A DNA stretch of 64,000 bases from Candidatus Pacearchaeota archaeon (GCA_016186425.1 JACPLR010000007.1:2838-66837); one strand, 5' to 3'. Positions 16,163 through 50,332 are shown, numbered from the stretch's first letter. Notes: generated from the sequence alone by a model not told the origin. Made by a program: numbers and translations.

Positions 16163-19100
16163 TTAAACCCTCTGAATATATCCTGATTTTGGAACAAAAA
16201 TATCTCCAGACATCCTAAGCTTTTCAATTGCCTCATCTAATTCAGCCTTATTTATTTTATTTTCAAGTTCTTTTTCAAGTTCTTCCATAGGAATTAATTT
16301 TCCCATTTTTGATTCTAACTTAATAATTGCATCTCTAACCTCAATAAACTTGCCTCTCTTGCTTGTCGTTACTCCAGTAACTATTTTATCAATGTCAAAA
16401 GTCTTTGTCTCATAATCATAACCTGCCTGCATTAAATAAAATTTCATCAGATTAATTGCCCTCAAAGAATCTTCTTTTTCAACAATAGGAGATAAGCGAG
16501 TTTTAGCAGAAGCCTCGCTTAACCTTACTAAAGCTTCTAATTGCCTTGCAGTAATTGGAATTGGCTTTAACGGAGAATCCGACGCTGTTGGTGCGTTTCT
16601 CAAGCTCACATAAAAATTCTTTATTTCTGCAACAGCTTCATCAGAAAGTTTAGGTATTATTTTTTGTTTTGCATAAGCAACATATTTTCTAAATAACTCT
16701 GGTTCTATACTCCCTCTTAAGATAGTATTTTGTTGTTCAAATAAAACATGAGACGCAATTGCTTCATCTCTCGCTTTTTCTGGCAAATCCCTTAACATAA
16801 AAATAACATCAAACCTGTTTAATAAAGTTGGCTGAATATCAATTTGCTGTGCAATTGCCTGATACGGATCAAATCTTCCAAATTTTGGATTCCCCGCAGC
16901 AAGAACACTTGTCTCAGCTCTCAAACTCGCCTGCACATTTGCCTTGCTTATTGTTACAGAATTATGCAAAACCATATTATTGGAAATAAAAGAATGATTT
17001 GGTTCAATAGTCACGTCATAAACCCATTTTATATCTTTATTCTTGATAATTTCAACAGATTTTATTTTAGACCATCTTATTTTGCCTTTCGAAACTATTG
17101 GGAAGGGATCTCCTTTTTTAGTTTTGATTGCCGAATTAGTAGTAATCTTTTTATTTTTTTTAGTCCAGCAAGGATGTTCTGGAGTAACAATAACCTCACG
17201 TCCATTATTTAAATTAATCTTAACAAATTTATTCGAGGCAATATGCCTGCTAACTTTATCAATTTTAACTGGATAAATAGATTCAAAATCGGTTGTTAAA
17301 ATTTTTAATCCATTATTTAAAGGTAATATCTCGCAATTTATTCCATTAATTACATTATTTTTATCCTTTTCAATTAAATTGTCAACAAATTCCCCTATTT
17401 TTATTTTAGAGCCATCTGCAAAACTTAAATTAAAATTAGGCAAATAACATTGCTGTTCCATTGCCTCATGCATTGCGCTTCTATCCTGCTCATCCATTTT
17501 TTCAATTTCATCAATGCAAACAATTCCTTTGTTGCTTAATACCATCGCCCCGGCTTCTAAACTCCATCCTTTTAAAAATTCATCTCTGACAACAGTTGCT
17601 GTTAACCCTGCACCACTTGCCCCTCTGCCCACAACGTAACGCCCCTTAGGGGCAATTTTAGAAACAAACTTTAGGGTTATAGAATTATGTACTCCTATAC
17701 CATTTGCTACAAATGTATTTGTGCCTGGAATAAATAAATCATAAACTTCTTCCTGGGTTTCAACCTCTTCAATCTTATCAATTTTAGACCATACTATTGG
17801 GCTATAAGCAATTTTTTTTAAAATATCAAAATCAGGCATTTTCTCTTTTGTTTTTTTCTGAAACATCTGAAGAATTTTCCTTAACCTTAACCTACCTATC
17901 TCCCCTCTTTTCTCAACAGTCCTCATTTCTGCAGCAAAGGTTCTATTTCCATCAATTCTTCGGTTATATCCAAGTTTCTTGGTTAAATCATAAACCAACT
18001 CTCCAACAGGAAGAAGATTATAATAACTGTACATAGGTTTATTATAAGATAAATATTCTCTTCCATAAAAATTAAAGCTATCCCTAAATTTTTGTATCAT
18101 TTGAGTCGGAACAGAAAGGGAATAATATTCTGTTTTCTTCCCTTTATATGTATAAACTCTTGAAATAATCCTGTTTAAAATTCCTATTGAGAATAATAAA
18201 TCAGAAGTTCCATGTGCAAGATCTTTTGATACTGTAATAAGTTCAAATCCTTTAATTCTTTCATCGTCTTTAATAAATCTCCCGTCTCCAGAGAAAATTC
18301 CAGAGATTAATCCTTTAATGAAATCTCTAGGGGCAAAATAAGCAAAATCCGGAATTTTCTTAATTCGTGAATAGTTTCCTTTTACTTTGCTTTCTCGTTT
18401 TTTATCAAGATTATAACAGTAATATTTTAATAAATTAGAAAGGCTTTTTGATGAAATTAAAATTCCGTCTTTAGTATTCTTATCAACATTAAGCCCAATT
18501 TCATCTGCAAAATTAATTAATTTTTGCTTAAATTTCTTATTTTTATTTGAAATATTAACAGTTTTATCAGATCTTATATATCCTTCACTTAAAAAAGCTC
18601 CTATAAAAAAACCAAATTGCTCATTTAAGAGTATTTCGCTCGGCAACTGCTTTGAGTTAGTTAAATAAGTATTAAATTTATCAGTTTTTAGTTTTTTAAC
18701 AGATTCATGGTGAAAATTAATAGGTAATGGCAAATAAGTGTTTTTATCTAAGTCGCTTCCTTTTATTGGAACTATTTCTCCTTCTTTAGATAAAGTGATA
18801 AAAGAATGATCTAAAGTAGCTATTACACTTTTCCCGTGTTCGGTTGTTACCTTTATAAGTTTTTTTTCAGGAGAGTGTTTTATTATTTGTTCAACTTTCT
18901 TCCATTTTGGAGCATGATTATTCATGTCAATGGTCAAAGTTTTTAAGCTATGCGGATATTTTCCAAATTTATTAAATAAACTTTCAATAGTATCATATCC
19001 ATATTCTTTATTGTTAAAATACAAGACTTTCTCATTCTTGCCCAAACTTTTGGCCACGCCTGGATCCCCCACTAAAAGTATATGTATGTCTCCTCTTGTA

Positions 19101-20035
19101 ACAGTTCCATCAACTTTTTGTTTTTTTATTCCCCCAAATAACTGAAGAACAAGTGACTGCTTAACTTCTTCATATCCATAAATGCTTGGAGCGATATTTT
19201 CAGTGAGCTTCCGGAAAATATTTTCATCCATTGACAATTCCTTAATTTGCATCTCATCTTCTTCAGAAATCTTTAATTCTTCATAGCTTTCTTCCAGTGG
19301 AATAACATTATTTGCATCAATAGCCAAATCAAATCTTGTTGAAACAGACCCTGTTTGCAAAGGGACAGGAACTTCACTTAATATTCCAATTACTCTTACT
19401 TTGCTTCCCGGAGTTGTTCGCTCTTCCATTTTTGGGTCAACTAAATCTTCCTTCAAAAAAACATTAAGTCTTCTCGGCTGTTCTCCTCCAATCAAACTTT
19501 CAGGACTTTCTTCAATTACAAGTCTTTGAGCATCAACCATTTGCTTGCTTATCAGTTTAAAAAAACCTTTTCTTCCGCAGGAACATCTGCTTGGCTCCTT
19601 AAATTTTTTCTCTAATTGCAGAACAGAAATAATAGTTCCGCAGGAAGGACATTCAAACCTTGCGCTGACAACCTGGGGCCTCACATCACTCGCCTGCCTG
19701 ACAATTCCCTCTATCCAGAGCATTTTATTCAAGTGCTTTGCCCTTATATTCCTTATTTTAACAAAGTTATCATCAGGCAAATCAAGCAGCCTTATCCTGG
19801 GATTTTTAAGAATGCCTATTTCCTGAAGCGAAACTTCTAGATTATTAAGAATCTCTTCAGGCTTGTCAAGCAGCATTTCCGCAATCACATGTGAAAAAGA
19901 AGCCAAATCATTAAAACTCATAAAAACTATATTTTCTCCAGACCTAGCTGCTTCTCCTATCTGTTTCTTATAAAAATTAAAAAAACCCTTTGCCTCTGCA
20001 ACAAATTCTTCTTGTTTAAGTTTATCCATTTTCAC
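16163..20035 (-). CDS. mcm: MCM replicative helicase precursor containing two inteins (672-aa mature extein)
   Basis: N-terminal Zn motif CPSCG...CSCG. Walker A GDPGVAK|S is split by intein 1. Walker B IVCIDEIEKM. HEAMEQQ| is split by intein 2. Arginine-finger region LNRFDVIFML. GAGGTGA RBS 5 nt upstream of the ATG. Confidence 0.95.
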   Translation of the reverse strand: MKMDKLKQEEFVAEAKGFFNFYKKQIGEAARSGENIVFMSFNDLASFSHVIAEMLLDKPEEILNNLEVSLQEIGILKNPRIRLLDLPDDNFVKIRNIRAKHLNKMLWIEGIVRQASDVRPQVVSARFECPSCGTIISVLQLEKKFKEPSRCSCGRKGFFKLISKQMVDAQRLVIEESPESLIGGEQPRRLNVFLKEDLVDPKMEERTTPGSKVRVIGILSEVPVPLQTGSVSTRFDLAIDANNVIPLEESYEELKISEEDEMQIKELSMDENIFRKLTENIAPSIYGYEEVKQSLVLQLFGGIKKQKVDGTVTRGDIHILLVGDPGVAKSLGKNEKVLYFNNKEYGYDTIESLFNKFGKYPHSLKTLTIDMNNHAPKWKKVEQIIKHSPEKKLIKVTTEHGKSVIATLDHSFITLSKEGEIVPIKGSDLDKNTYLPLPINFHHESVKKLKTDKFNTYLTNSKQLPSEILLNEQFGFFIGAFLSEGYIRSDKTVNISNKNKKFKQKLINFADEIGLNVDKNTKDGILISSKSLSNLLKYYCYNLDKKRESKVKGNYSRIKKIPDFAYFAPRDFIKGLISGIFSGDGRFIKDDERIKGFELITVSKDLAHGTSDLLFSIGILNRIISRVYTYKGKKTEYYSLSVPTQMIQKFRDSFNFYGREYLSYNKPMYSYYNLLPVGELVYDLTKKLGYNRRIDGNRTFAAEMRTVEKRGEIGRLRLRKILQMFQKKTKEKMPDFDILKKIAYSPIVWSKIDKIEEVETQEEVYDLFIPGTNTFVANGIGVHNSITLKFVSKIAPKGRYVVGRGASGAGLTATVVRDEFLKGWSLEAGAMVLSNKGIVCIDEIEKMDEQDRSAMHEAMEQQCYLPNFNLSFADGSKIKIGEFVDNLIEKDKNNVINGINCEILPLNNGLKILTTDFESIYPVKIDKVSRHIASNKFVKINLNNGREVIVTPEHPCWTKKNKKITTNSAIKTKKGDPFPIVSKGKIRWSKIKSVEIIKNKDIKWVYDVTIEPNHSFISNNMVLHNSVTISKANVQASLRAETSVLAAGNPKFGRFDPYQAIAQQIDIQPTLLNRFDVIFMLRDLPEKARDEAIASHVLFEQQNTILRGSIEPELFRKYVAYAKQKIIPKLSDEAVAEIKNFYVSLRNAPTASDSPLKPIPITARQLEALVRLSEASAKTRLSPIVEKEDSLRAINLMKFYLMQAGYDYETKTFDIDKIVTGVTTSKRGKFIEVRDAIIKLESKMGKLIPMEELEKELENKINKAELDEAIEKLRMSGDIFVPKSGYIQRV
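16961..17449 (-). mobile_element. MCM intein 2 (163-aa mini-intein, no endonuclease domain)
   Basis: Residues 863-1025. It starts CYLPNF... after HEAMEQQ and ends ...NNMVLHN followed by +1 Ser (SVTISKANVQASL restores the MCM consensus). Block B is VTPEHP. Confidence 0.85.
17684..19048 (-). mobile_element. MCM intein 1 (455 aa) with LAGLIDADG homing endonuclease domain, inserted in the P-loop
   Basis: Residues 330-784 of the ORF. It starts with Ser after GDPGVAK and ends ...GIGVHN followed by +1 Ser (SITLKFVSKIAP restores the MCM consensus). Block B is TLDHSF. The two LAGLIDADG motifs are FFIGAFLSEGYI and LISGIFSGDGRF. Confidence 0.85.
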
Positions 20036-21971: not shown

Positions 21972-22937
21972 TCATCGTCGAGAAAAATCCAAATTCCTGA
22001 AACTTTTATCTTCAGTTCCTTTGTTTTGCGTGGATTGTGAATTAATTGCTGTTCCAGATCCACTGCCTGGCGCTGGTTTTTGGAGGGTTTTCAAATTGCT
22101 AGTTTTGCCACTATTTCTCTTGCGATAAAGCACAACTATTATTGCAATAATAGAAATAATAATTAAAATAATTATAACAATCAATATGATAAGCCAAGTT
22201 CTGTTTAATTTCTGCGGTTCTGCAACAGGACACATGCCGCTGCAATCATAGCTGCAGGTATCGCAACTCTCTCCATTATCAGTATTGCAAACATTATCTC
22301 CGCAATAAGGAGCTTCAACAACAGGTGTAGGAGGTGTTGTAATAACTATCGGACAGGCTCTTATTTCTTCGGGTTTTCCACTATCTCTATTACATATTAT
22401 ATCTCTACATGTTCTCGTACCACAACTATAAGTTTTATTAGACCAAGTAGTACAACTCCATGTTGAATCACACCTGCCTCCCCCTCCACCTCCGCCGCCA
22501 CCAGGCGGCGGCTGTGATGGATTTGCCTGACACTGATTATTAGCATTGCAAAATTGTCCAGAAGGACAATCAGAACTTGCAGCACAACCACTTGCTCCTC
22601 CTGTAAGTAAATTAAGAATTTGCTGTAATAATGTCTGATTTAATGATGTATATCTTAATTTACATACTCCCTCAACACAAAGCGAATTCAAGCATTCATA
22701 ATCATTTAAACAATTTGAACCTCTCTGTCTCTGATTTAATAATGTGCCATTTAAACAATATTGGCTATTATTAAAAACATCTCCTTCATCAATGCAAATA
22801 TTCAGGCTATTAACATAACATTGCCCTTGATTAGGGCATGTCGAAGAAGGTTGAGCATAAACTGATTGAAAACTAAAAAATAAAATAAATAAAAAAAAGA
22901 AAGGCAATACAAGAAAAGGTAAAAGTTTTTTTACCAT
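21972..22937 (-). CDS. Cys-rich surface protein with N-terminal signal peptide, poly-Gly hinge and C-terminal TM anchor
   Basis: 321 aa. Signal LPFLVLPFFFLFILFFSFQSVYA. CLNDYECLNSLCVEGVC motif shared with the giant neighbours. PPPGGGGGGGGGR run. TM WLIILIVIIILIIISIIAIIVVLY followed by RKR. Its ATG lies 1 nt after the upstream stop. Confidence 0.75.
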   Translation of the reverse strand: MVKKLLPFLVLPFFFLFILFFSFQSVYAQPSSTCPNQGQCYVNSLNICIDEGDVFNNSQYCLNGTLLNQRQRGSNCLNDYECLNSLCVEGVCKLRYTSLNQTLLQQILNLLTGGASGCAASSDCPSGQFCNANNQCQANPSQPPPGGGGGGGGGRCDSTWSCTTWSNKTYSCGTRTCRDIICNRDSGKPEEIRACPIVITTPPTPVVEAPYCGDNVCNTDNGESCDTCSYDCSGMCPVAEPQKLNRTWLIILIVIIILIIISIIAIIVVLYRKRNSGKTSNLKTLQKPAPGSGSGTAINSQSTQNKGTEDKSFRNLDFSRR

Positions 22938-22938
22938 C

Positions 22939-25900
22939 TTAACCTCCTGCTGCTTGAATACATTGATTTCTTGAGTCTGAATTAAATGGATGTTGTATAA
23001 AGCATGAGATTGCAGCCCATATGCTTTTTAATAATCCTGTTTGTTCTTTAAATGCGCCACAAACTCCTTCTATACAAACATTGCTCTCACACTCATAATC
23101 ATTTAAGCAAGAAGCAGTAGAATTCCCCGCTTTTTTATATACAAGTGTCGCAGGATCACAATACCATACTTTATTATCATTTGATTTTACTCTGGTTTTT
23201 CCAGGCACTTCGCTTGAAATTCCATTACCAGTATTAGCTAAACATTTATTTCTTCCAGGAGGGCCTTCACAATTTGCGCTGCATTGTCCGTCTTCACAAC
23301 GAGTCTGCCCTTCTGGACATGCTTCTATTTTTACAAATGTTCTCCCATCAGAAGATTCATAAGCATCATCTCCATACCATAATACTACCTTATTATTAAT
23401 TTTCTCAACATATCCAACACTAGGCACTCCAGAAGGCAAACCGCTTAATTCTCCAATAACATTTATATAATTGCCTCCAGAACTTGAATTTGATTTATAT
23501 AATCCAATACTCATAGGTGCAGTTGCTGAAGAACCCGATGTTGCAGGGCTATTAATTGTTCCTACAATCAAATACCATAAATAAACAGCATCATCGCCAG
23601 TTAAATTAGAGTAATAACCTAAGTTTGGAATCTTATTTGTTGGAAGTCCTCCTTGATTAAACAGAACATTTGCAAAAGTTCCGTTTCCGTATCCAACATA
23701 TCTATCACTTCCATTCCATAAAACTATTCTTCCCCCATGTCCTTCTAATGGATGCCAATAAGCATCTGTAGGAATAAAATCTCCAGGTAATTTTCCTCCC
23801 TCTCCACTGCCTCCTCCTGTACTAGATGAAAGTCTTTGCATTTTCCCGGTAGTATTCCTGAAATATATTTCCCTGTTTGCATTCCATAATAAAATACTAT
23901 CATTTCCAGGAAATCCTTGATAATATCCTATAACAGGTTTAAAGTCTGCTGGCAAACCTTCTGCAACCTTAGTTGTAAATTGTGTAAACCTTCCTGTGTT
24001 TCCTCTATAAATAAATGCAGCTCCACTCTCATTCCATAAAACAATTGCTCCTCCGCCATACGGATGCCAATATCCAAATTTAGGTATGAATCCTGCCGGC
24101 AATCCAGGATAAGCTCTTACTCCTTCAATATCTCCGCCACCACCGCCAGTGCCTCCAGCACCACTTTGGCAAAATCCAGTAGCAGCATTACAAAAACTTT
24201 CTGTAGGACAATCTTGTCTTTCTGTTGCAGGAGCGCAAGGAACTCCAGGAAGGGTATTTGTTTGAGCAGTGCAAGCAGCATTAGTGCCACTGCCTGCTGT
24301 TAAAGTTATATATTTTACAATTGGAGAAACAGTTCCAGAATTAAAACTACATGCAGAACCATTCCAGATTTTATAACCTGTAACATCTTTTACAAGAATA
24401 TATATTTCTTTATTAGAAGGGACAGCTAAAGAAACTCCTGCTTCAGAATAACCTGCCATAATCTCATTAACCCTGCTGCTTATAATTAATTGATTAGTTG
24501 TTTTATCATAAACTTCAACTGTTCCTGATTTATCCACTGCAGAAGCGGGTATAAAAAAATGAACACTAAGAGTAGTAGTCCCTGCTACAACGACTCTTTC
24601 AACAGCTGTAAAAGTTGCTCCGTCAGTTGATTCATAAGCATCAGCTCCATACCATAAAACAATTTTCTTTCTTATATTATCAAAATAACCTGCAGTTAAC
24701 ACTTGATTTGTTGGCAAACCAGTAGGAGAAATAAGATTAAACTTGTTCTCTGACTGGCTCCAATTATAAAGTTTCAGCTGCCCATTAATTTCATACCATA
24801 ACTGAACCCCTTTCTGTGCAGTAGAAAATTCGTAATAATAACTGACTTTTGGAGTTCCTGTTCCTGGCAAATTATAATTTACAGGATTAATTTGTGAAAA
24901 AACACTATCGCTAGCTGCAATATACCATTTTGTTGCATCAAATAAAGAAACTCTTCCGCCGGTAGTTCCCAAATTATGCCAGTAACCTGTCTTAGGAACA
25001 AAGTCGTAAGGCAATTCTCCCGGCTTTGTATCTGCTGCATTGCCAATTCTATCAGAAATTTTAGTATATTTTCCTATTACATAACTCCAAAGATACATAA
25101 CCCTATTACTATCACTTAATATTATTGTTTCTTTTCCAGAAAATCCTTGATACCATCCATAGGTTGGCTTGTAATCTCGTGGCAAACCAACAATATCTTT
25201 TCCTCCAGCTCCAGCATCATTCCATAAAGCAAAATTAACTCCATTAGTTGAATAGTAAACTCTCCCATTTGCATCCCATAATACAAGAACCCCTTTATTT
25301 GTTGCAGGAGCTGAAGGATTTCTATGCCAATATCCAAACCTTGGAGTAAACCCTGCAGGCAAACCAGTATACTCTCCAGAAGTTGCTGGGCATGATTGTA
25401 TCTCACTTGGCTTATTAGTTATAACTCCGCAATTATTGGAATCTGTGCATGTTCTTGTTTTAACTCCATTTACACAATTTACATTATCCCATGATGCAGG
25501 ATTGCAAGTCCAGGACGGAGTGCAAGTAACCGAACCCGGACAAGGATCAAATTCACAATTCAAAGCAGGATTTCTTCCAACAGAACTTCCATCAGGACAA
25601 ATTTTAGCTTCCTTTGTACAAGCAGAAGTACATTGAGTTGTTCCAGTTCCTGTTTCTAATGTTATTGTTTTTGTAACAACGCCTCCACTTACAGTAAGAG
25701 TAAAAGGACAATTTATACCATTAAAATCTTTATAGCCATTAACATCTTTAATATAAATATAAATAGGAATATCAAGAATATTTGCGCTAGAAGATGAAGG
25801 AAATGAAGCTGAAAAAGCACCGGCAACTTGTAACCCCAACCTAACATTATTATTAGAATCTAAAACTTGATTATCAGACGCTCTTCTTATTTCTATTGTA

Positions 25901-26088
25901 GCAATATTATCTGCAGAACCCTGAGCATTTGCAACAACATCCAATCTTGGAGGAGAACTCAACTGCGGCTTACCTTTAAAAGAATCAATAAAATCAGTAA
26001 ACCAATTTGCAGAAACAAAACTCATCGCCAAAAGAATAAAAATGACTAATATTGATACTAAAATAAATGCGCTCACACCCTTTTTCAT
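22939..26088 (-). CDS. giant secreted Cys-rich repeat protein (1049 aa), paralog of 28146..30989
   Basis: Signal/TM then SFVSANWFTDFID. Two internal copies of [Ig-like beta domain - Cys-rich knot - five GLPxxFxPxxGYWH...LW units]. C-terminal CLNDYECESNVCIEGVC plus a helix. Confidence 0.8.
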   Translation of the reverse strand: MKKGVSAFILVSILVIFILLAMSFVSANWFTDFIDSFKGKPQLSSPPRLDVVANAQGSADNIATIEIRRASDNQVLDSNNNVRLGLQVAGAFSASFPSSSSANILDIPIYIYIKDVNGYKDFNGINCPFTLTVSGGVVTKTITLETGTGTTQCTSACTKEAKICPDGSSVGRNPALNCEFDPCPGSVTCTPSWTCNPASWDNVNCVNGVKTRTCTDSNNCGVITNKPSEIQSCPATSGEYTGLPAGFTPRFGYWHRNPSAPATNKGVLVLWDANGRVYYSTNGVNFALWNDAGAGGKDIVGLPRDYKPTYGWYQGFSGKETIILSDSNRVMYLWSYVIGKYTKISDRIGNAADTKPGELPYDFVPKTGYWHNLGTTGGRVSLFDATKWYIAASDSVFSQINPVNYNLPGTGTPKVSYYYEFSTAQKGVQLWYEINGQLKLYNWSQSENKFNLISPTGLPTNQVLTAGYFDNIRKKIVLWYGADAYESTDGATFTAVERVVVAGTTTLSVHFFIPASAVDKSGTVEVYDKTTNQLIISSRVNEIMAGYSEAGVSLAVPSNKEIYILVKDVTGYKIWNGSACSFNSGTVSPIVKYITLTAGSGTNAACTAQTNTLPGVPCAPATERQDCPTESFCNAATGFCQSGAGGTGGGGGDIEGVRAYPGLPAGFIPKFGYWHPYGGGAIVLWNESGAAFIYRGNTGRFTQFTTKVAEGLPADFKPVIGYYQGFPGNDSILLWNANREIYFRNTTGKMQRLSSSTGGGSGEGGKLPGDFIPTDAYWHPLEGHGGRIVLWNGSDRYVGYGNGTFANVLFNQGGLPTNKIPNLGYYSNLTGDDAVYLWYLIVGTINSPATSGSSATAPMSIGLYKSNSSSGGNYINVIGELSGLPSGVPSVGYVEKINNKVVLWYGDDAYESSDGRTFVKIEACPEGQTRCEDGQCSANCEGPPGRNKCLANTGNGISSEVPGKTRVKSNDNKVWYCDPATLVYKKAGNSTASCLNDYECESNVCIEGVCGAFKEQTGLLKSIWAAISCFIQHPFNSDSRNQCIQAAGG

Positions 26089-26240
26089 TCTTAATTAAGA
26101 AAAAAGGCATTTATAAACTTTATTGTAAAATTAAAAATTTGGCAATTCAAAGTGATAACAGAAAATTTGAAATAAAAACTATTTTTTGAATTAAAAAAAT
26201 AATAGCTCAATTAATTCAGCGTTCATTAATTTCACTATTA

Positions 26241-26300
26241 TATAATATGCTGAAATATAAAAGAAACCTTATAATTAATTTATTGGTTTAAGCTACTAAT
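26241..26300 (+). repeat. IGR-A element, degenerate 3' half
   Basis: TATAATATGCTGAAATATAAAAGAAACCTTATAATTAATTTATTGGTTTAAGCTACTAAT. Confidence 0.55.
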
Positions 26301-26333
26301 TATAAATAATCAATATAAGCTTATTTCATCCAA

Positions 26334-26400
26334 CTAATAAATTATTTTAAATTTCTCGTAGGGAGAAATTTAGCATTGTATTGTTTTCAAAAAAAATTTC
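26334..26400 (+). repeat. IGR-A element, 5' half
   Basis: CTAATAAATTATTTTAAATTTCTC-gtagg-GAGAAATTTAGCATTGTATTGTTTTCAAAAAAAATTTC. Hairpin at 26349-26371. The copy ends at the lig stop codon. Confidence 0.85.
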
Positions 26401-26411
26401 TCTTTCTCTTT

Positions 26412-28112
26412 TTACTTCTGTCTTTTATATTCTCTTTCAATATCTTTCAAGCTGGCAATCTCGCTTAATGGTTTGTCTATTCTCAAAGCAGTCACTCTAG
26501 GAAATCTTAAAGCATATCCCGAAGAATACGTCGGGGATTTCTGTATTTCCTGAAATATAACAGAGACAATTATCTTTGGCTTGACTTTCACTTCCTTGCC
26601 AGAAGATTTAATAATTAAAGGTTTAAGCAAATTAGTTAATTCTAAGAAAGAAACGCCTATATCTAATTTTTCTTTAATACCAGTGCCCACTCTGCCTATT
26701 TCTAAAAATTCCCCTTCTCCATGTTTATCAGATTTACAAGCCAAAATAAAACTGCTGAGCCAACCAGCCCTTTTTCCAGTCCCATACTCTGCACCAATAA
26801 TAACTAAATCAAGATCTCTATGTTCTGGCTTTAATTTTAACATGTAGCCGACTCTTGATCCGGGTTTGTAAACTGCATTTAAATTTTTAATCATCAAACC
26901 CTCCTGATTTAATTTTAAAGCCTGATTAAAAAATTCCTGCGCCTTTTTCTCATCATTAGTAATCAATTGCTTTGCGCAAACTAATTTATATTCCTTATTT
27001 TTAATAATTTTTCTTAGAGTCTTTGTTCGCTCTATAAACGGCTTGCTAATATAACTTTCTCCATCCAACATAAGAAGATCAAAAACATTAACTTCAACAG
27101 GAAAATCCTTAGCCATTTTTTCAAGGTCATACTTTCTTTTAATTCTCTGGCTGATTGACTGGAATGGTAGGTATTTTTTAGTCTTGGGATCATAACCAAC
27201 AACTTCTGAATCAATCATAAATGACTTGGCATTTACAAATTCTTTAACAAAAGAAACAACATCCGGGAATTGCTTTGTGACATTTTCAAGCCTTCTTGTG
27301 AAAAGGCTGATATTGCCTTTTTCATCCTTATTAATCATAAGCCTAAAGCCATCATACTTAAATTCAAATGCTGCCGGTTTTCCGACTTTTTCAAATCCCT
27401 CTTCAATAGTATCAACTTTCTGAGCCAACATTGCCCTAATTGGAGCGCCAGCTTTCAAAGTAACCTTTCCCAATTCCTTCAGCCCTTTTCTAGCTTTTTC
27501 AAATATTAAAGCCATATCTGGATTAAGATCATAGGCATGCTGAATTATTTCAGAGGCTGATTTTTTATCATCGTGGAAAAAAACTTCTGAAATAGAATCT
27601 CTAAGTGTGCTGTCCTGAACTCCAATTCTTAAATCAGCAAGTAATATTCTAACAAGATACTTAGCTTCAATTGGCTTGGAATTAGATAACAATCCAGCAA
27701 TTAAGTCTATTTTCTTCCCAACAGTCCCTTTTCCCTGCATTTTAGCAAGTTCACGCAAGTCTGAAATTATTTTTTCAGTTGTTAATTCCCCATGAAATAA
27801 TCCTGATTGTTTTTTTCCAGCTATCAGCAATTCAGCAACCTTTCCAAGATCCCCAATTTTTTTCCATTCCCCAACTATTTTCTCATCGTTAATTCCAGTA
27901 GCTTTAGCAAGAGCTTTAATAACTGTCTGTGTGCTTATTCCAATTTCCCTTGCATCATAAGCAGGATACAAGCTTCCCAGCAGCAAATAAAGAACATCTT
28001 TATCTTTCTCATTAATTTTCTTCAAGAACTCGGATAATATTGCAATTTTCTCAAGGCGTTTTGTCGTTCCGCCAAGTTCTTCATAAACTTTGCATAATTC
28101 AGAATATTTCAT
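26412..28112 (-). CDS. lig: ATP-dependent DNA ligase (Lig1 type)
   Basis: 566 aa. Adenylation motif I FEFKYDGFR, EGLMIKNL, and the LKLKPE motif. N-terminal DNA-binding domain pattern. Confidence 0.9.
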   Translation of the reverse strand: MKYSELCKVYEELGGTTKRLEKIAILSEFLKKINEKDKDVLYLLLGSLYPAYDAREIGISTQTVIKALAKATGINDEKIVGEWKKIGDLGKVAELLIAGKKQSGLFHGELTTEKIISDLRELAKMQGKGTVGKKIDLIAGLLSNSKPIEAKYLVRILLADLRIGVQDSTLRDSISEVFFHDDKKSASEIIQHAYDLNPDMALIFEKARKGLKELGKVTLKAGAPIRAMLAQKVDTIEEGFEKVGKPAAFEFKYDGFRLMINKDEKGNISLFTRRLENVTKQFPDVVSFVKEFVNAKSFMIDSEVVGYDPKTKKYLPFQSISQRIKRKYDLEKMAKDFPVEVNVFDLLMLDGESYISKPFIERTKTLRKIIKNKEYKLVCAKQLITNDEKKAQEFFNQALKLNQEGLMIKNLNAVYKPGSRVGYMLKLKPEHRDLDLVIIGAEYGTGKRAGWLSSFILACKSDKHGEGEFLEIGRVGTGIKEKLDIGVSFLELTNLLKPLIIKSSGKEVKVKPKIIVSVIFQEIQKSPTYSSGYALRFPRVTALRIDKPLSEIASLKDIEREYKRQK

Positions 28113-28145
28113 AATATTAAAGAAAAGAAAAAAGAATATTTAAGT

Positions 28146-30989
28146 TTATCCTAAAAAATTATTTATGCATTGCTCACGTTGTTCTTGACTAATTGGATGT
28201 GCAATTAAACAAAGGAGAGATATTGCGTACCTCTGAAATGCATTGACTTTATTAATTTCCTCTTTTATAGGCAAACACTCTCCAGATGAACAGAAATTGC
28301 TCTCACATTCATAATTATTCTGGCATTTTGCAACGCTTCCATCATAATCTTTTATTTTTTGCTCATTTATATTTCCATCATAATTACAATAAGAGTTTAT
28401 ATCTCTAAGGAAAGTCATATCAACATAATTTTCTTCACTATTTAAAGCAAGAAAATTGATCCCATCAATTCTCACAGGTATTTCTAAACCTTCAGAATCT
28501 GGATTAACAATTGTTATTCTATCACCTAAGAATAGATTATAAGTTATATTCTTTTCTTTTCCAATCAAAGTGAACCTTGCTTCATTATCTGAAAGAACAT
28601 CTAATATAAAATCGTCAACATTATTTATTTCATATAATCTATTTTTATCTGATTCTTCATAAATAAATCTAGTTCCATAAGGAATGCAAACATTGTCGCT
28701 GAATTTATAATCAGCCCACCTAGGAACTAAACATCCGGCGCAAATTCCAGGGCTGCAATAAGATTCACGAGTTACATCTGGGCTATTACAATCAGAATTA
28801 TCAATACATGTTGTTGTTTGTCTTCCGTGAGGCGGACAAATAATAGGCTCTGTCTTGCACTGGTAATAAGGTTCGCATGTTTCCAAACTAATTTCAGAAG
28901 AACATTGGGAAAGGCTAACTTCAATTTGACGGGACAAAGGATAAGGTATCTCAAAATCCTCCCAGTTAACAGAGTTAGCATCATTATTTTGCAAGGCATT
29001 GATAAAATCATTTAACTTATACTGTGAAAGCTTAAGCAATTCTTCATCAGAAAGTTTTTTTCCACTGCTTACATATACCACAACTGCAATATTATCTTTA
29101 ATCCATATTACCTCTCGCGTTTTATAATTATATTGGTCAAGATCCTGATTTCCATAAAATACATCCCAATTGCAGATGTAAACTTTATTTTCTTTATTAT
29201 CTGAACTCCAGTAAGTTCGTGGTTGACATATTCTTCCAGATATAGTAGAATCAATCCAAGAACTTAAATTCAAATCTTGATTATCAAAAACATTAAGATT
29301 ATAGTCAATATTATAATTCACATTATCATAATAAGTATGCCAAGAAGCATAATAATGAGTTGTAGGATAATCTTTTCCATTAATCCAAACACTGCTTCTT
29401 TCACTTGAATTCCACCCAAGGTTATATACTATATTATAATCAAAGAAACTAGCTGGCTGAGCTACTTTTTTAATCAGGTCAGGACAAACATTTGATGGCT
29501 CAATAATAATAATAGGACAGTAAAAAGTCATTACATCACTTCCTGTTGTTTGCGGAAAATTCAAAGTTACTTTTATTGCATCCATATTAAATGAAGGACC
29601 ACTATAAGTTAAGCCATATTCCATTCCACCAATTGAAATTGTTGTTAAACCTTCTATTGAGGTAGAAGCTGTTGTGTAAACTTCATTTGTAAGCACGTCT
29701 TTTAATTCGACTTTATCTCCCTCTCCCTGAGGATATGAACTATTTATAACAGTTTGAACTCTTAATAAATAACCAGGAATAACAACATAATTTCCTTTAT
29801 AAAATACCTCGCCTTCTTTTACTACCACAATCTTGCCTTGAGATTGTAAATTAGTTATATTTATTCTTATTTCATTATTTAAATAACCACAGCCATCAAC
29901 TTCTGTTAAGCCTCCAACAATACAATCACCATTACTACAACCATTAGGACAAAGATTACAACCTGCTCCTCCTGAATTTGCAATGCACTGCCCATTTTGA
30001 CATATATAAGTAGTAGTTGAAGTACAAGAAGAGTCTCCAGAACAATAATTCCTAGAAGTTGACGGACAATCACTATCACTAGAACATTGAGAAGTTGATA
30101 TTCCAACATTTACTTTATAGTAAATTCTTCCATCACCTGACTCGTAAACTTTATCATTAAACCATAGGATAACTTTCTTTCTTATCTTATCAAAATAAGC
30201 AATATTCGGAGTATTTGGGATTATTGTGCCATCAGACAATCTTGGCCTTACAGCCCCGCTAAATTTACCAGTAGAAGAATCATATCTATAATAACCTTGA
30301 GAGGACCATAAGTTAGTTGACTCAACCTCTCCTATAACATAATTAACAACTGCCAAAGGCAAATTTGGCATTTCTAATAAACTGCTCTGTGAAAATTTTA
30401 AATCACTTCCAGCACTATATTCTTTATAAGTTCCACTTGTCTGGCCCCAAAAGATTATTTTCCCGCCATTAAATTTATGGAAAATGCCTTTTTGTAAAAC
30501 AAAATCGCTAGGCAATCCAACAGCCACCATCATTTCATTTGTAAATGGTTCAAACTTTTTTGTATTCGGATTATAAACATAAACCATGCCATTACCATCT
30601 GATAAAATTATCCTTCCATTACCATCTCCAAAAGCATGATAAAAACCAACTCTTGGCTTGAAATCAGAAGGCAAACCAGAAGCAACTTTTTCTGCATCAC
30701 TCCACTTAACAAATTTCAAACCATCACTTGAAAAATAAGCCTGTCCATTTACATCCCATAAAATTATTTTTCCAACAGAACCAGCTGGAAAGGGATGCCA
30801 ATAACCAACAACTGGCTGAAAACCATCAGGCAACCCTTCAAATATTGTTGTCCCAGGGCTTAAAGAAACTTCTTTTCCACTTAGTTTATCAAAAAAATCA
30901 GTAAACCAATTTGCAGAAACAAAACTTAACGAAATAATAATCATTAAGAACACTATCGAAAATAAAAATAAATTCACCCTCTTTTCCAT
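28146..30989 (-). CDS. giant secreted Cys-rich repeat protein (947 aa), paralog of 22939..26088
   Basis: Signal/TM then SFVSANWFTDFFD. One five-unit GLPxxFxPxxG(Y/F)(W/Y)H...LW block (aa 51-293), Cys-rich regions, and C-terminal CQNNYECESNFCSSGEC plus a helix. Confidence 0.8.
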   Translation of the reverse strand: MEKRVNLFLFSIVFLMIIISLSFVSANWFTDFFDKLSGKEVSLSPGTTIFEGLPDGFQPVVGYWHPFPAGSVGKIILWDVNGQAYFSSDGLKFVKWSDAEKVASGLPSDFKPRVGFYHAFGDGNGRIILSDGNGMVYVYNPNTKKFEPFTNEMMVAVGLPSDFVLQKGIFHKFNGGKIIFWGQTSGTYKEYSAGSDLKFSQSSLLEMPNLPLAVVNYVIGEVESTNLWSSQGYYRYDSSTGKFSGAVRPRLSDGTIIPNTPNIAYFDKIRKKVILWFNDKVYESGDGRIYYKVNVGISTSQCSSDSDCPSTSRNYCSGDSSCTSTTTYICQNGQCIANSGGAGCNLCPNGCSNGDCIVGGLTEVDGCGYLNNEIRINITNLQSQGKIVVVKEGEVFYKGNYVVIPGYLLRVQTVINSSYPQGEGDKVELKDVLTNEVYTTASTSIEGLTTISIGGMEYGLTYSGPSFNMDAIKVTLNFPQTTGSDVMTFYCPIIIIEPSNVCPDLIKKVAQPASFFDYNIVYNLGWNSSERSSVWINGKDYPTTHYYASWHTYYDNVNYNIDYNLNVFDNQDLNLSSWIDSTISGRICQPRTYWSSDNKENKVYICNWDVFYGNQDLDQYNYKTREVIWIKDNIAVVVYVSSGKKLSDEELLKLSQYKLNDFINALQNNDANSVNWEDFEIPYPLSRQIEVSLSQCSSEISLETCEPYYQCKTEPIICPPHGRQTTTCIDNSDCNSPDVTRESYCSPGICAGCLVPRWADYKFSDNVCIPYGTRFIYEESDKNRLYEINNVDDFILDVLSDNEARFTLIGKEKNITYNLFLGDRITIVNPDSEGLEIPVRIDGINFLALNSEENYVDMTFLRDINSYCNYDGNINEQKIKDYDGSVAKCQNNYECESNFCSSGECLPIKEEINKVNAFQRYAISLLCLIAHPISQEQREQCINNFLG

Positions 30990-31150
30990 TTTACTTTAAT
31001 TAATCAAATAAAAATAGATTTATAAATCTTTATATAAAATTTAGAAAAGAAAAAAAACGCCGAAAATAAGAAAAATTGAGTTAACAATTGTTAAGTGTAT
31101 ATTTTAAAAAATATTAAAAGAAAAAATAAATTAAATGACTAATTAATCAA

Positions 31151-48988: not shown

Positions 48989-50332
48989 TTATTCACAAAC
49001 ATCGTTATCAGTACAAGAATCTATTTCCTTAGTAGTCTCACAAGTTAAATAAGTCCTGCCCATCTGATCTCCATTAGGGCGCAATCTAACCCACTCTTTT
49101 ATAAGATCTTGAGTGCATGAATTATAAGAACTAACTGTAAGATCTTTACAATAAGACATTAAATCATCTTTAATCACACATGACCTGCAATTAAAAGGAA
49201 ATAAATTTTTACAATAATCTTTAATGCCCATGTGATGTCCCGTCTCATGAATTATATTCTCGACAATTTTATCATCTGTCAACTCTTGATAATAAGATGC
49301 ATCAAATAAAGTAAAACTTGGAAGAAACCATCCAGCAATCTTGGGATTATTAACATAAATAAGTTTATAATTATTTGAATGAAAAGCCGGAATTCCGCCT
49401 TCACTTGGTTCTCCTATAACTATTAAGAGATCGAAATTATCTGGATTTGTATTAGAAGACTTAACCTTACTAAAAATTGCTTTTAAAAAATTTTGAATAT
49501 TTCTTTGACCTGATGATAAACTATATTCAAACCAAACTCTTTGTTTATTAATGGAGCTTAGCCAGGTTAATGGTGAACTATAAGTTACAGAGGCAATATT
49601 ATCCCAGACTCTAGAACCATCTGATGTATCCATTATTTTATAATCATAATTTGAAGGGATATCTGTACGTTTAAGATATTCACGATATACATCTGGATTT
49701 TCAATTATAAAATCCAAAGGAGAATCACCTACAGGAAGATCTGTAGAAATAACTTTATCAATTTTTAGTACCACCATACCTTTAGTGGCCTCATAAAACT
49801 TATCCTCTATTTTAGGTTTAAGGGAGTTTAACCTATTCAATGGTACAAGTGAATTTCCATATCCAAATAATAAAGCATTAATAACTGGTTCTTTGATACA
49901 ATCATAAGTTCCGCTTCCAGGTTGCATATTTATTATTCTTTTTATACTCTGACCAGAATAAATATCAAATCTGCAAGGATATCCATTCCAAGACTTATAA
50001 TTATCAACTCCTGCAGCGTAAATATAAACAGATCTTGGTCCAACATAATTTGTTGGAACATTAAAGATATAATACCCCTGATCCATTGAAAGATAATTGG
50101 CTACTAACTGCTTTCCTGTATTGGCATCAATAATCACAACACCTCCAGTTTTATCTAAAGGAAAAGTATCTCCTGGAACAGTTAATTTAACTGACACATA
50201 AGCAATTGGTGGAGGGGCAAGTTGAACATTTTCCTTGTCTTGGTAACTAAAATAAAGATTAACAGCACTAGCAACAATTATAATTAATGAAAGAGAAACA
50301 ATTAAGCTAGTCATCACCTTCTTTTTATTCAT
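48989..50332 (-). CDS. secreted metzincin-like zinc metalloprotease with N-terminal Ig-like domain
   Basis: N-terminal TM/signal. HETGHHMGIKD fits HExxHxxGxxD. A downstream DLMSY may be a Met-turn. The N-terminal 100 aa resemble the Ig-like domains of the 1049-aa protein (...YIYAAGVDNYKSWNGYPCRF...MQPGSGTYDC). Confidence 0.65.
   Translation of the reverse strand: MNKKKVMTSLIVSLSLIIIVASAVNLYFSYQDKENVQLAPPPIAYVSVKLTVPGDTFPLDKTGGVVIIDANTGKQLVANYLSMDQGYYIFNVPTNYVGPRSVYIYAAGVDNYKSWNGYPCRFDIYSGQSIKRIINMQPGSGTYDCIKEPVINALLFGYGNSLVPLNRLNSLKPKIEDKFYEATKGMVVLKIDKVISTDLPVGDSPLDFIIENPDVYREYLKRTDIPSNYDYKIMDTSDGSRVWDNIASVTYSSPLTWLSSINKQRVWFEYSLSSGQRNIQNFLKAIFSKVKSSNTNPDNFDLLIVIGEPSEGGIPAFHSNNYKLIYVNNPKIAGWFLPSFTLFDASYYQELTDDKIVENIIHETGHHMGIKDYCKNLFPFNCRSCVIKDDLMSYCKDLTVSSYNSCTQDLIKEWVRLRPNGDQMGRTYLTCETTKEIDSCTDNDVCE

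What the first reader, a model, noticed from the sequence alone, without database searches (positions are those of the whole stretch)
21972..30989. Paralogous giant secreted Cys-rich proteins flank DNA ligase: a candidate novel cell-surface apparatus
ORFs 22939-26088 (1049 aa) and 28146-30989 (947 aa) share a near-identical leader (hydrophobic segment, then SFVSANWFTDF(I/F)D). They also share the same repeat block and the same C-terminal module: C(L/Q)N(D/N)YECESN(V/F)C..GxC followed by an amphipathic helix ending ..C(I/L).HP(F/I)....R.QCI. Neither has a C-terminal TM. The 321-aa gene immediately downstream (21972-22937, ATG 1 nt after the stop) has a signal peptide, the same CLNDYEC.NSLC.EGVC motif, a Gly9 hinge and a C-terminal TM anchor, which would suit a membrane stalk for the large subunits. 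The essential lig gene is sandwiched between the paralogs. These three genes are visibly less AT-rich than their surroundings because they are rich in Gly, Pro, Ala and Cys codons. In small episymbiotic archaea, proteins like these are prime candidates for host-attachment or S-layer-like structures. I cannot assign them to any named family.
Basis: partly seen in the sequence, partly recalled or inferred. Interest (0 to 1): 0.8.

Follow-up and report, generated by a model that had tools for sequence, protein, structure and literature searches.

The report
Modular secreted binding proteins of Pacearchaeota
The two large genes are real paralogs from a big, unnamed family of exported, cysteine-rich, lectin-like proteins found only in Pacearchaeota and Woesearchaeota, most likely used to bind other cells or surfaces, but the proposed three-gene "apparatus" around DNA ligase is not a conserved unit.

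Summary
ORFs A (22939-26088, 1049 aa), B (28146-30989, 947 aa) and C (21972-22937, 321 aa) exist as described. A and B share the leader, a ~260-aa block (twice in A) and a C-terminal Cys-knot/helix module. The window is from a Candidatus Pacearchaeota MAG, and all three proteins are annotated "hypothetical".

What is new:
- The shared block is a predicted five-bladed beta-propeller.
- B's last ~450 residues define a large unnamed family: 513 cluster representatives, and 51 loci in species-representative genomes, almost all Woese-/Pace-/Nanoarchaeota. There is no Pfam, NCBIfam, PDB-sequence or Foldseek match.
- Family members keep the leader (SFVSA|xWFSDFWxKITG) and the C-terminal region but swap lectin-type heads (LamG in 24 of 46, F5/8-C, dockerin, propeller).
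- A carries only the leader and the last ~80-aa module.
- C is co-transcribed with A (1-nt gap, GGAGG upstream) and conserved only in one close lineage.

The ligase "sandwich" is local synteny. No partner gene recurs beside B-type genes.

Best reading: Sec-exported, disulfide-rich, fast-evolving surface or secreted binding proteins. The function is inferred, not shown. The family is new in its conserved chassis, not in kind.

The parts
28146..30989 (-). Gene B (947 aa; NCBI MBI2628743.1, 'hypothetical'): full-length member of the unnamed Woese-/Pacearchaeota family
   Evidence: ORF. Family profile A1 matches positions 7-483 of 484, E 5e-175. 513 cluster representatives at E<=1e-3 and 204 at E<=1e-30. 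Accession.
30879..30989 (-). B signal peptide plus conserved leader (residues 1-37; ...LSFVSA|NWFTDFFDKLSGK)
   Evidence: n-h-c organisation with V-S-A at -3..-1, read from the sequence. Leader signature conserved across the family. Amphipathic-helix moment 0.60. The cleavage itself is inferred.
30102..30872 (-). B beta-propeller head (residues 40-296), five blades
   Evidence: AF2 model pLDDT 83.9, pTM 0.84, 5 x 4 strands. Foldseek hits are all propellers, led by PknD sensor 1rwl (E 6e-7) and hemopexin-like domains.
29523..30101 (-). B Cys-rich linker modules and a beta-rich middle domain (residues 297-489), conserved in part of the family
   Evidence: Some representatives align from about B residue 313-367 onward. 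Cys positions.
28149..29522 (-). B conserved C-terminal region (residues 490-947): alpha/beta domain, Cys knot (CSPGICSGCYVPRW / CIPYGxRF), beta-sandwich, then YEC knot and helical hairpin
   Evidence: Alignment A1 with 20 invariant or near-invariant Cys. AF2 model pLDDT 79.5. No PDB or BFVD structural neighbour. No Pfam or PDB sequence match.
31019..31026 (-). TATA-like box TTTATAAA, 29 nt upstream of B's ATG
   Evidence: Read from the sequence. The same box is aligned upstream of A. Promoter function is inferred.
22939..26088 (-). Gene A (1049 aa; MBI2628741.1): 'short-form' relative with the leader, two copies of (beta-rich domain, Cys modules, propeller), and the terminal YEC/hairpin module
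   Evidence: ORF. Internal duplication E 7e-53. Family profile matches only residues 968-1045, i-E 1.2e-11. Few homologues.
25975..26088 (-). A signal peptide plus leader (residues 1-38)
   Evidence: 52% identical to B's leader. 33-nt perfect DNA identity with B over SFVSANWFTDF.
24589..25383 (-). A propeller copy 1 (residues 236-500)
   Evidence: BLASTP against B, E 3e-32. Aligned in A2.
23323..24135 (-). A propeller copy 2 (residues 652-922)
   Evidence: BLASTP against B, E 2e-32. Aligned in A2.
22942..23187 (-). A terminal module (residues 968-1049): YC..., CLNDYECESNVCIEGVC, then a helix pair with two Cys
26110..26117 (-). TATA-like box TTTATAAA, 21 nt upstream of A's ATG
   Evidence: Promoter function is inferred.
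21972..22937 (-). Gene C (321 aa; MBI2628740.1): type-I membrane protein with a signal peptide, a 24-Cys ectodomain with a Gly9 run, a TM segment (residues 248-271 = 22125-22196) and a conserved tail EDKSFRNLDFSRR. Co-transcribed with A.
   Evidence: 1-nt gap and GGAGG 8 nt upstream of the ATG. Orthologue directly after the A-like gene in L052/L056. Not detected by the family profile.

Best explanation
A and B are Sec-exported, disulfide-rich, modular extracellular binding proteins (adhesin- or lectin-like). They belong to a large unnamed protein family restricted to Woesearchaeota and Pacearchaeota.

The family chassis has three parts:
1. A signal peptide ending in an SPase-I-type site (SFVSA|), followed by a conserved aromatic amphipathic segment (xWFSDFWxKITG).
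2. An exchangeable ligand-binding head. Here it is a five-bladed beta-propeller; elsewhere it is LamG, F5/8-C, dockerin and others.
3. A conserved Cys-rich C-terminal region that ends in a Cys knot plus a helical hairpin.

B has the whole chassis. A has only the leader and the last ~80-aa module, around a duplicated propeller cassette.

I infer that the heads bind glycans or proteins on a host cell or particle. I also infer that the conserved ends handle export and then retention or oligomerisation at the archaeon's own surface. A is co-transcribed with C, a small Cys-rich type-I membrane protein that may tether A, but only in this narrow lineage. DNA ligase is a bystander.

Shown: paralogy, family size and taxonomic range, fold of the shared block, absence of known-family matches, operon structure, and synteny variation.
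Inferred: signal-peptide cleavage, disulfides, binding function, surface retention, and any A-C contact.
For: - Paralogy and motifs.
- Family size: 513 cluster representatives at E<=1e-3, 204 at E<=1e-30, nearly always matching at the protein's C-terminus.
- Range: 70 profile hits, all from Pace-/Woese-/Nanoarchaeota MAGs, and either 'hypothetical' or named after the head domain. 51 loci in GTDB species representatives, 49 labelled Woese-/Pace-/Nanoarchaeota or simply archaeon.
- Leader: conserved across genomes (40 strict and 67 loose matches among 135 full-length representatives). It is absent from the other signal-peptide-like ORFs of the window, including C. It is amphipathic: muH 0.60-0.61 for A and B, family mean 0.43 against 0.26 +/- 0.13 for shuffles.
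- Shared block: a five-bladed propeller (pLDDT 83.9, pTM 0.84) whose closest structures are extracellular sensor or ligand-binding propellers.
- Heads across the family are lectin-type: LamG 24/46, F5/8-C, pentraxin-like, sialidase-N, dockerin, WxxW.
- The same propeller block sits on proteins with N- and C-terminal TM anchors in other Pacearchaeota (P0003/P0004) and on an M64 peptidase with dockerins (P0005). That marks it as a portable extracytoplasmic module.
- Cys counts are even in all three proteins (30, 32, 24), and all of C's Cys lie in the ectodomain. One family member carries a DsbA/thioredoxin domain.
- Fast evolution typical of surface proteins: A and its positional orthologue P0002 are 37% identical over 42% of A, while flanking lig is 88% and TBP 99% identical.
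- A-C operon: 1-nt gap plus GGAGG, and the pair is conserved in L052/L056.
Against: - There is no experimental or expression evidence.
- No SignalP or TM predictor was available, so the export call rests on reading the sequence.
- How proteins without a TM segment or a known sorting signal would stay on the cell is unknown. They could simply be released.
- The conserved 450-aa region has no structural or sequence analogue, so its role as an anchor or oligomeriser is a guess.
- Pacearchaeota are thought to be anaerobes, so extracellular disulfides are not certain. The CxxxCxxC-type clusters could bind metal instead.
- The AF2 model of the C-terminal region is only moderately confident after residue ~250 (pLDDT 50-85).
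Confidence: 0.6

Rival explanations
1. First reader's model. A, B and C form one cell-surface apparatus. C is the membrane stalk on which both large subunits dock through the shared YEC module, and the genes are kept together around lig.
For: A and C are co-transcribed and share two Cys modules. The A-like/C-like pair is conserved in L052/L056. C is a type-I membrane protein whose cytoplasmic tail motif is conserved.
Against: B-type genes in 51 genomes have no C-like neighbour and no recurrent partner at all. C relatives were found only in one close lineage. The close relative L052/L056 has A and C but no B at this locus. L021 has a B-like gene and a different small Cys-rich secreted protein, but no A. 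The family profile does not detect C. Lig adjacency is confined to close relatives.
Confidence: 0.1
2. The B-type family is the S-layer or main envelope protein of Woese-/Pacearchaeota. The conserved C-terminal region forms the lattice or anchor, and the variable head is the exposed face.
For: It is a stand-alone gene among housekeeping genes, with mostly one locus per genome (55 ORFs in 51 loci) in the pattern-limited scan. It has its own TATA-like promoter box. It is exported, and the conserved region is lineage-wide. No S-layer protein is known for these lineages, as far as I am aware.
Against: No similarity to any known S-layer family or structure. The close relative L052/L056 lacks B at the syntenic site, although a copy elsewhere in that genome cannot be excluded. 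Cys-rich knots are unusual for S-layer proteins. Lectin-type heads and dockerins point to binding rather than lattice formation. Copy number per genome was not properly measured.
Confidence: 0.15
3. These are secreted enzymes. The conserved C-terminal region is a new catalytic domain (for example a glycan- or peptide-degrading one), and the variable heads act as carbohydrate-binding modules.
For: LamG, F5/8-C, PA14, dockerin and propeller modules are typical appendages of secreted carbohydrate-active enzymes. The first domain of the C-terminal region is a confident compact alpha/beta fold. Castelle et al. (PMC8204110) describe large extracellular enzymes in these same lineages.
Against: Apart from Cys, the invariant residues in that domain are Tyr, Trp and Asn. 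There is no invariant Asp, Glu, His, Ser or Lys. No structural match to any hydrolase. A keeps only the last 80 residues of the region, yet also keeps the leader.
Confidence: 0.08
4. The leader is a class III (type IV pilin-like) signal, and the proteins are subunits or tip adhesins of a surface filament.
For: A and many family members start with MK[KR]G followed by a hydrophobic stretch, which loosely resembles the [KR]G|hydrophobic prepilin site.
Against: B (MEKRVNLF...) and many other members lack the Gly. The invariant feature is instead the small-x-small site (V/A-S-A) after the hydrophobic core, which is the signal peptidase I pattern. No pilin-like domain, assembly ATPase or prepilin peptidase lies nearby.
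Confidence: 0.03

Closest known systems
Extracellular beta-propeller ligand-binding or sensor domains (M. tuberculosis PknD sensor domain 1rwl; hemopexin-like domains of MMP14 3c7x and vitronectin 7rj9)
   Same: The block shared by A and B is predicted to be an all-beta propeller of four-stranded blades. These are its best Foldseek neighbours (E 6e-7 to 1e-5, probability 1.0). They are extracytoplasmic binding scaffolds.
   Different: Five blades rather than six (PknD) or four (hemopexin). TM-scores are only ~0.4-0.5. There is no Pfam hit to NHL, hemopexin, WD40 or Kelch. The blade signature GLPxxFxPxxGYWH...ILW is its own.
'LamG domain-containing protein' and 'BspA family LRR surface protein' annotations in Nanoarchaeota and Pacearchaeota MAGs
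   Same: These are true homologues of B. They have the same leader and the same ~450-aa C-terminal region.
   Different: Their names describe only the exchangeable head. A and B carry a propeller instead, and the conserved chassis itself has no name or model.
Large extracellular lineage-specific proteins of Woese-/Pacearchaeota (module 98; fam00969 murein transglycosylase proteins; Castelle et al. 2021, PMC8204110) and SPEARE proteins of Nanohaloarchaeota (Hamm et al. 2019, PMC6642349; content from my own knowledge, listed but not read)
   Same: Lineage-restricted, exported, multi-domain DPANN proteins proposed to mediate cell-cell interaction. The general statement that many DPANN-specific families are extracellular and unannotated already covers this kind of protein.
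   Different: There is no transglycosylase, protease or nuclease domain here. The proteins are smaller (~1000 aa). The conserved leader and C-terminal chassis is not mentioned in the papers I could search.
Modular bacterial surface adhesins and S-layer-anchored proteins (variable head plus a conserved anchoring domain, such as SLH or the T9SS C-terminal domain)
   Same: The logic matches: conserved terminal targeting or anchoring elements, exchangeable lectin-like heads and rapid divergence.
   Different: No sequence or structural relationship. The partner for the conserved ends is unknown. This is an analogy only.
Archaeal C-terminal sorting signals (PGF-CTERM with archaeosortase A)
   Same: A conserved C-terminal element on secreted archaeal surface proteins.
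   Different: PGF-CTERM is a short motif followed by a TM helix and a basic tail. A and B end in a soluble Cys knot plus helical hairpin with no TM.

Membership tests
Unnamed Woese-/Pacearchaeota secreted-protein family (defined here by alignment A1) | Conserved ~450-aa C-terminal region (alpha/beta domain, CSPGICSGC / CIPYGxRF knot, beta-sandwich, CQNNYECESNxCSxGEC plus a helical hairpin with two Cys) | tested here: met
   B matches profile positions 7-483 of 484, E 5e-175. A matches only positions 396-480 (i-E 1.2e-11), so it is a partial or short-form member. C gives no hit.
Unnamed Woese-/Pacearchaeota secreted-protein family (defined here by alignment A1) | N-terminal signature: hydrophobic core, [LS]SFVSA, then [SNG]W[FL][ST]D[FL][FW]xK[IL]TG | tested here: met
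   A and B both carry SFVSANWFTDF. The position-specific composition comes from 44 family leaders. C has a different signal peptide.
Beta-propeller fold | Radially arranged blades, each a four-stranded antiparallel sheet | tested here: met
   AF2 model with 20 strands in five groups of four, pTM 0.84. 588 Foldseek matches at E<=1e-3, and the top 50 listed are propeller proteins. This is a prediction, not an experiment.
Named propeller sequence families (WD40, Kelch, NHL, hemopexin, FG-GAP, tachylectin) | A match to the family's Pfam repeat model above the gathering score | tested here: not met
   No Pfam or NCBIfam hit for A or B at E<=1 apart from noise. The A2 profile against PDB sequences gives nothing.
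Sec-type signal peptide cleaved by signal peptidase I | Basic n-region, 15-20-residue hydrophobic core, and small residues at -3 and -1 | tested here: inconclusive
   The pattern is present and conserved (V/A at -3 by the standard rule, Ser at -2, Ala at -1). No dedicated predictor or N-terminal sequencing was available.
Type IV pilin-like (class III) signal peptide | [KR][GA] cleavage site immediately before the hydrophobic stretch, present in all members | tested here: not met
   B starts MEKRVNLF, and many other members lack the Gly. The conserved site lies after the hydrophobic core, not before it.
PGF-CTERM / archaeosortase substrates | C-terminal PGF-type motif followed by a TM helix and a basic tail | tested here: not met
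   A ends ...RNQCIQAAGG and B ends ...REQCINNFLG. Neither has a C-terminal hydrophobic segment. The model shows a helical hairpin.
Known S-layer protein families | Sequence or structural similarity to a described S-layer protein or domain | tested here: not met
   No Pfam, NCBIfam or PDB match. Lattice formation cannot be tested with these tools.
Cohesin-dockerin systems | A dockerin (PF00404) or cohesin module in the protein | tested here: not met
   Dockerin occurs in relatives (P0002, P0005, P0138, P0091) but not in A, B or C.

The most novel reading that the evidence does not exclude
The conserved leader (a cleaved signal followed by an aromatic amphipathic helix) and the terminal Cys-knot/helical-hairpin module together form a previously unrecognised surface-protein targeting and anchoring system specific to Woese-/Pacearchaeota. 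It would be analogous in role to PGF-CTERM/archaeosortase or the T9SS C-terminal domain. The family it marks would be the main host- or particle-attachment, or envelope, layer of these uncultured ultrasmall archaea. The 33-nt identical leader DNA would mark a recombination anchor for shuffling head cassettes.
Probability: 0.15. Interest if true: 0.7.

Novelty: new variant of a known kind. Interest (0 to 1): 0.5.

Why it matters
Pacearchaeota and Woesearchaeota are abundant ultrasmall archaea. None has been cultured, and their hosts and envelope proteins are unknown.

A family present across the clade could be the molecular handle for finding what these cells attach to. It has a fixed export and anchor chassis and rapidly swapped lectin-type heads.

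The conserved ~450-aa region has no counterpart in Pfam, NCBIfam or the PDB. It is therefore a good target for structure determination, and for building a family model that would replace hundreds of "hypothetical" or misleading "LamG domain" annotations.

That said, unannotated extracellular families specific to DPANN lineages are already a recognised phenomenon (PMC8204110). This result sharpens a known picture rather than overturning it.

Tried and rejected
- Pfam, NCBIfam and PDB-sequence searches of A, B and C, and of the profiles A1 and A2: only noise or TM-driven hits.
- Foldseek of the C-terminal-region model against the PDB (best E 0.035, TM <=0.15) and against BFVD (three hits at E<1e-3 but TM ~0.1 and rmsd >24 Å): no usable neighbour. 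The weak TiME / LpqN / Mog1-like hints for the first domain were not pursued.
- The word-indexed homology search with B found only 3 proteins. The exhaustive HMMER search was needed.
- A conserved-operon explanation is rejected. Unbiased clustering of neighbours in 51 loci found no partner (best 8/51, housekeeping).
- A functional link with DNA ligase is rejected.
- An enzyme reading of the C-terminal region is made unlikely by the lack of invariant catalytic-type residues.
- A pilin-type signal is rejected.
- Codon bias alone does not explain the identical leader DNA (P about 0.001). However, the L052 lineage is close (lig 88%), so identity between genomes is less surprising than the identity between A and B.
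- Literature: four searches, targeted reading of two papers and one supplement look-up found no description of this family.
- Other exported ORFs in the window gave no disulfide-forming or sorting machinery.

Full report
**1. Observation**

The window is a ~30% GC archaeal segment from a Candidatus Pacearchaeota MAG. Its proteins are NCBI MBI2628740/41/43, all annotated "hypothetical". Three ORFs lie on the minus strand exactly as reported: C at 21972-22937 (321 aa), A at 22939-26088 (1049 aa) and B at 28146-30989 (947 aa). An ATP-dependent DNA ligase (26412-28112) lies between A and B.

BLASTP of A against B gives three separate significant matches:
- the N-terminal 46 residues, 52% identical, E 5e-10;
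- a ~260-aa block, 31-33% identical, E 2e-32 and 3e-32, present twice in A and once in B;
- the last ~60 residues, 38% identical, E 2e-10.

A is itself a tandem duplication of a ~440-aa cassette (E 7e-53). The three signature motifs occur nowhere else in any frame of the window.

C shares with A only two short Cys modules. C has a signal peptide, 24 Cys that all lie in the ectodomain, a Gly9 run, one TM segment and a basic tail. One nucleotide separates A's stop from C's ATG, and GGAGG lies 8 nt upstream of C's start. This is the arrangement expected for an internal gene of an archaeal operon.

The GC claim holds for A and C (0.36-0.38) but is marginal for B.

**2. The shared block is a beta-propeller**

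I aligned the three window copies with five copies from relatives. The alignment gave an AF2 model with pLDDT 83.9 and pTM 0.84. It has 20 strands in five groups of four, plus an N-terminal closing strand.

Foldseek returned 588 PDB matches at E<=1e-3, and the 50 listed are propeller proteins. The top hits are the extracellular PknD sensor domain and hemopexin-like domains. TM-scores of ~0.5 fit a different blade number. No named propeller sequence family matches.

The same block occurs elsewhere:
- on Pacearchaeota proteins anchored by N- and C-terminal TM segments (P0003/P0004);
- twice on a protein with dockerins and a precomputed Peptidase_M64 hit (P0005).

It is therefore a portable extracytoplasmic module.

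**3. B belongs to a large unnamed family**

An exhaustive HMMER search of 1.84 billion cluster representatives found 513 proteins at E<=1e-3 and 204 at E<=1e-30. Nearly all of them align to B residues ~500-947, at or near their own C-termini.

A 25-sequence alignment of this region (A1) has 38 invariant columns, including 16 Cys. Searching with its profile returned 70 proteins. All are from Pacearchaeota, "Nanoarchaeota", Nanoarchaeia or uncultured-archaeon MAGs. They are either unnamed or named after a head domain (LamG, BspA-LRR), and no Pfam domain is recorded on the conserved region.

A scan of one genome per GTDB species found 51 loci. Forty-nine are labelled Woese-/Pace-/Nanoarchaeota or simply archaeon. 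The other two are short contigs (5.8 and 2.4 kb) binned as Bacteroides and Patescibacteria, which I take to be mis-binning.

The AF2 model of B 490-947 (pLDDT 79.5) shows, in order:
- a very confident alpha/beta domain;
- a Cys knot;
- a beta-sandwich;
- the YEC knot and a helical hairpin.

It has no significant structural neighbour in the PDB or BFVD. The profile has no PDB or Pfam match. The non-Cys invariant residues of the first domain are Tyr, Trp and Asn. No Asp, Glu, His, Ser or Lys is invariant, which argues against an enzyme.

**4. The leader is a family signature, not a generic signal peptide**

Of 135 full-length representatives, 40 match a strict pattern and 67 a loose pattern of [VA]SA[SGN]W[FL]xD[FL]. 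The position-specific profile reads L-S-F-V-S-A | [SNG]-W-F-[STG]-D-[FL]-[FW]-x-K-I-T-G-[KN]-A-[VI].

The small-x-small site after the hydrophobic core is the signal peptidase I pattern, although cleavage itself is inferred. The segment after the site is a strongly amphipathic helix with an aromatic face. Its muH is 0.60-0.61 in A and B, and the family mean is 0.43 against 0.26 +/- 0.13 for shuffles.

In the window, the eight other signal-peptide-like ORFs, C among them, lack the motif. Across the fetched loci the motif goes together with the C-terminal YEC module.

The family profile detects A, P0002 and P0163 only over the last ~80 positions (i-E 1e-10 to 1e-12). It does not detect C. So there is a long form (B) and a short form (A) of the chassis.

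**5. The heads are exchangeable**

Of 46 full-length members, 24 carry LamG/ConA-like domains. Others carry F5/8-type-C, pentraxin-like, sialidase-N lectin, dockerin, WxxW, Kazal or CarboxypepD_reg domains, and one carries a DsbA/thioredoxin domain.

The B-positional orthologue in a related Pacearchaeota (L021) has a LamG head where B has a propeller.

A and its positional orthologue P0002 share 37% identity over 42% of A, and they differ in domain content. The flanking lig and TBP are 88% and 99% identical. Rapid divergence and cassette exchange of this kind are typical of surface proteins under diversifying selection.

**6. Genomic context**

The conserved backbone is L15e-lig-TBP-MCM. Three arrangements were seen:
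- this window: L15e-B-lig-A-C-TBP;
- L021: L15e-Blike-(NTase/HEPN pair)-lig-228-aa Cys-rich secreted protein-TBP;
- L052/L056: L15e-lig-Alike-C-TBP-MCM, with C intact in L056 and split in L052.

Among the 51 genome loci, lig is adjacent in only one, and nothing resembling C's Cys-rich ectodomain was found; the single weak hit to full-length C (L030, E 3.5e-6) covers only its TM region. Clustering all neighbouring ORFs gives no recurrent partner; the best is found in 8 of 51 loci and is housekeeping. A metagenome-wide search for C found only the L056 lineage, though that search is limited by its peptide patterns.

Three conclusions follow. The ligase sandwich is incidental. B-type genes stand alone. 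The A-C operon is real but confined to a narrow clade. TATA-like boxes (TTTATAAA) lie 21 and 29 nt upstream of A and B.

**7. Mechanism**

Shown:
- exported-protein sequence features;
- a propeller head;
- a lineage-wide conserved chassis;
- lectin-type head repertoire;
- fast evolution;
- the A-C operon.

Inferred:
- cleavage at SFVSA|;
- disulfide or metal stabilisation of the Cys modules (even Cys counts);
- ligand binding by the heads;
- retention or oligomerisation through the amphipathic N-terminal helix and/or the terminal hairpin;
- possible tethering of A by C.

I put 0.6 on the general reading: extracellular, adhesin-like modular binding proteins.

**8. Comparison and novelty**

The kind of thing is known: modular exported binding proteins, and unannotated extracellular families specific to DPANN lineages (PMC8204110).

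New here is the definition of a specific, large family restricted to Woese-/Pacearchaeota. It has a conserved leader and a ~450-aa C-terminal region with no sequence or structural analogue, and A and B are propeller-headed members of it. I found no description of it in the searchable literature.

I rate it a new variant of a known kind, with interest 0.5.

Noticed in passing
window 25990-26022 and 30894-30926 (minus strand); L052 4178-4209: A and B share a 33-nt perfect DNA match exactly over SFVSANWFTDF, although they are only ~33% identical as proteins elsewhere. The A-like gene of a related genome uses the same 32 nt. Codon usage alone gives about a 0.001 chance. This suggests gene conversion or a nucleotide-level constraint, possibly a recombination anchor for head shuffling.
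   Followed up: partly
window 16163-20035 (minus strand) compared with L056 9754-13317: The MCM gene carries two inteins here: one at the P-loop (GDPGVAKS) and a mini-intein after ...MEQQ. The close relative L056 lacks the P-loop intein and has a full-size LAGLIDADG intein at the second site. Intein content therefore varies between near relatives.
   Followed up: no
window 48989-50332 and 52585-54357 (minus strand); many family members: A short motif [VIL][QRK]L[SA]P (for example VQLSP, INLSP) recurs 10-20 residues after the N-terminal hydrophobic segment in many exported proteins of these archaea. These include two unannotated window ORFs (447 and 590 aa) with no Pfam hit. It may be a linker or a processing site.
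   Followed up: no
L021 7462-8427: A nucleotidyltransferase/HEPN-like pair (183 aa and 135 aa, a toxin-antitoxin type judged from the sequences only) is inserted between the B-like gene and lig in a related Pacearchaeota. The same spot in the window has only a 33-nt gap.
   Followed up: no
family members P0021, P0028, P0042, P0141 and others (C-termini): A subset of family members extends past the terminal hairpin with a Gly/Ser-rich tail that often ends in PP[AS]MP or PPxIP, with no TM segment. A and B lack this tail. Its meaning is unknown.
   Followed up: no
L052 8631-9583 compared with L056 7421-8374: The C orthologue is split into 61-aa and 218-aa ORFs in L052 but is intact (317 aa) in the near-identical L056. 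This is either an assembly error or a strain-level pseudogene.
   Followed up: partly
L034 (5.8-kb contig binned as 'uncultured Bacteroides sp.') and L049 (2.4-kb contig binned as Patescibacteria): Two short contigs assigned to bacterial bins encode family members. L034 even has the archaeal-type leader (SFASAGWFSDVF). This is most likely mis-binning in the public MAGs.
   Followed up: no
window 50406-51149 (minus strand): A 247-aa exported protein with a strong SIMPL/DUF541 match (E 1e-47) lies among the other unannotated exported ORFs.
   Followed up: no
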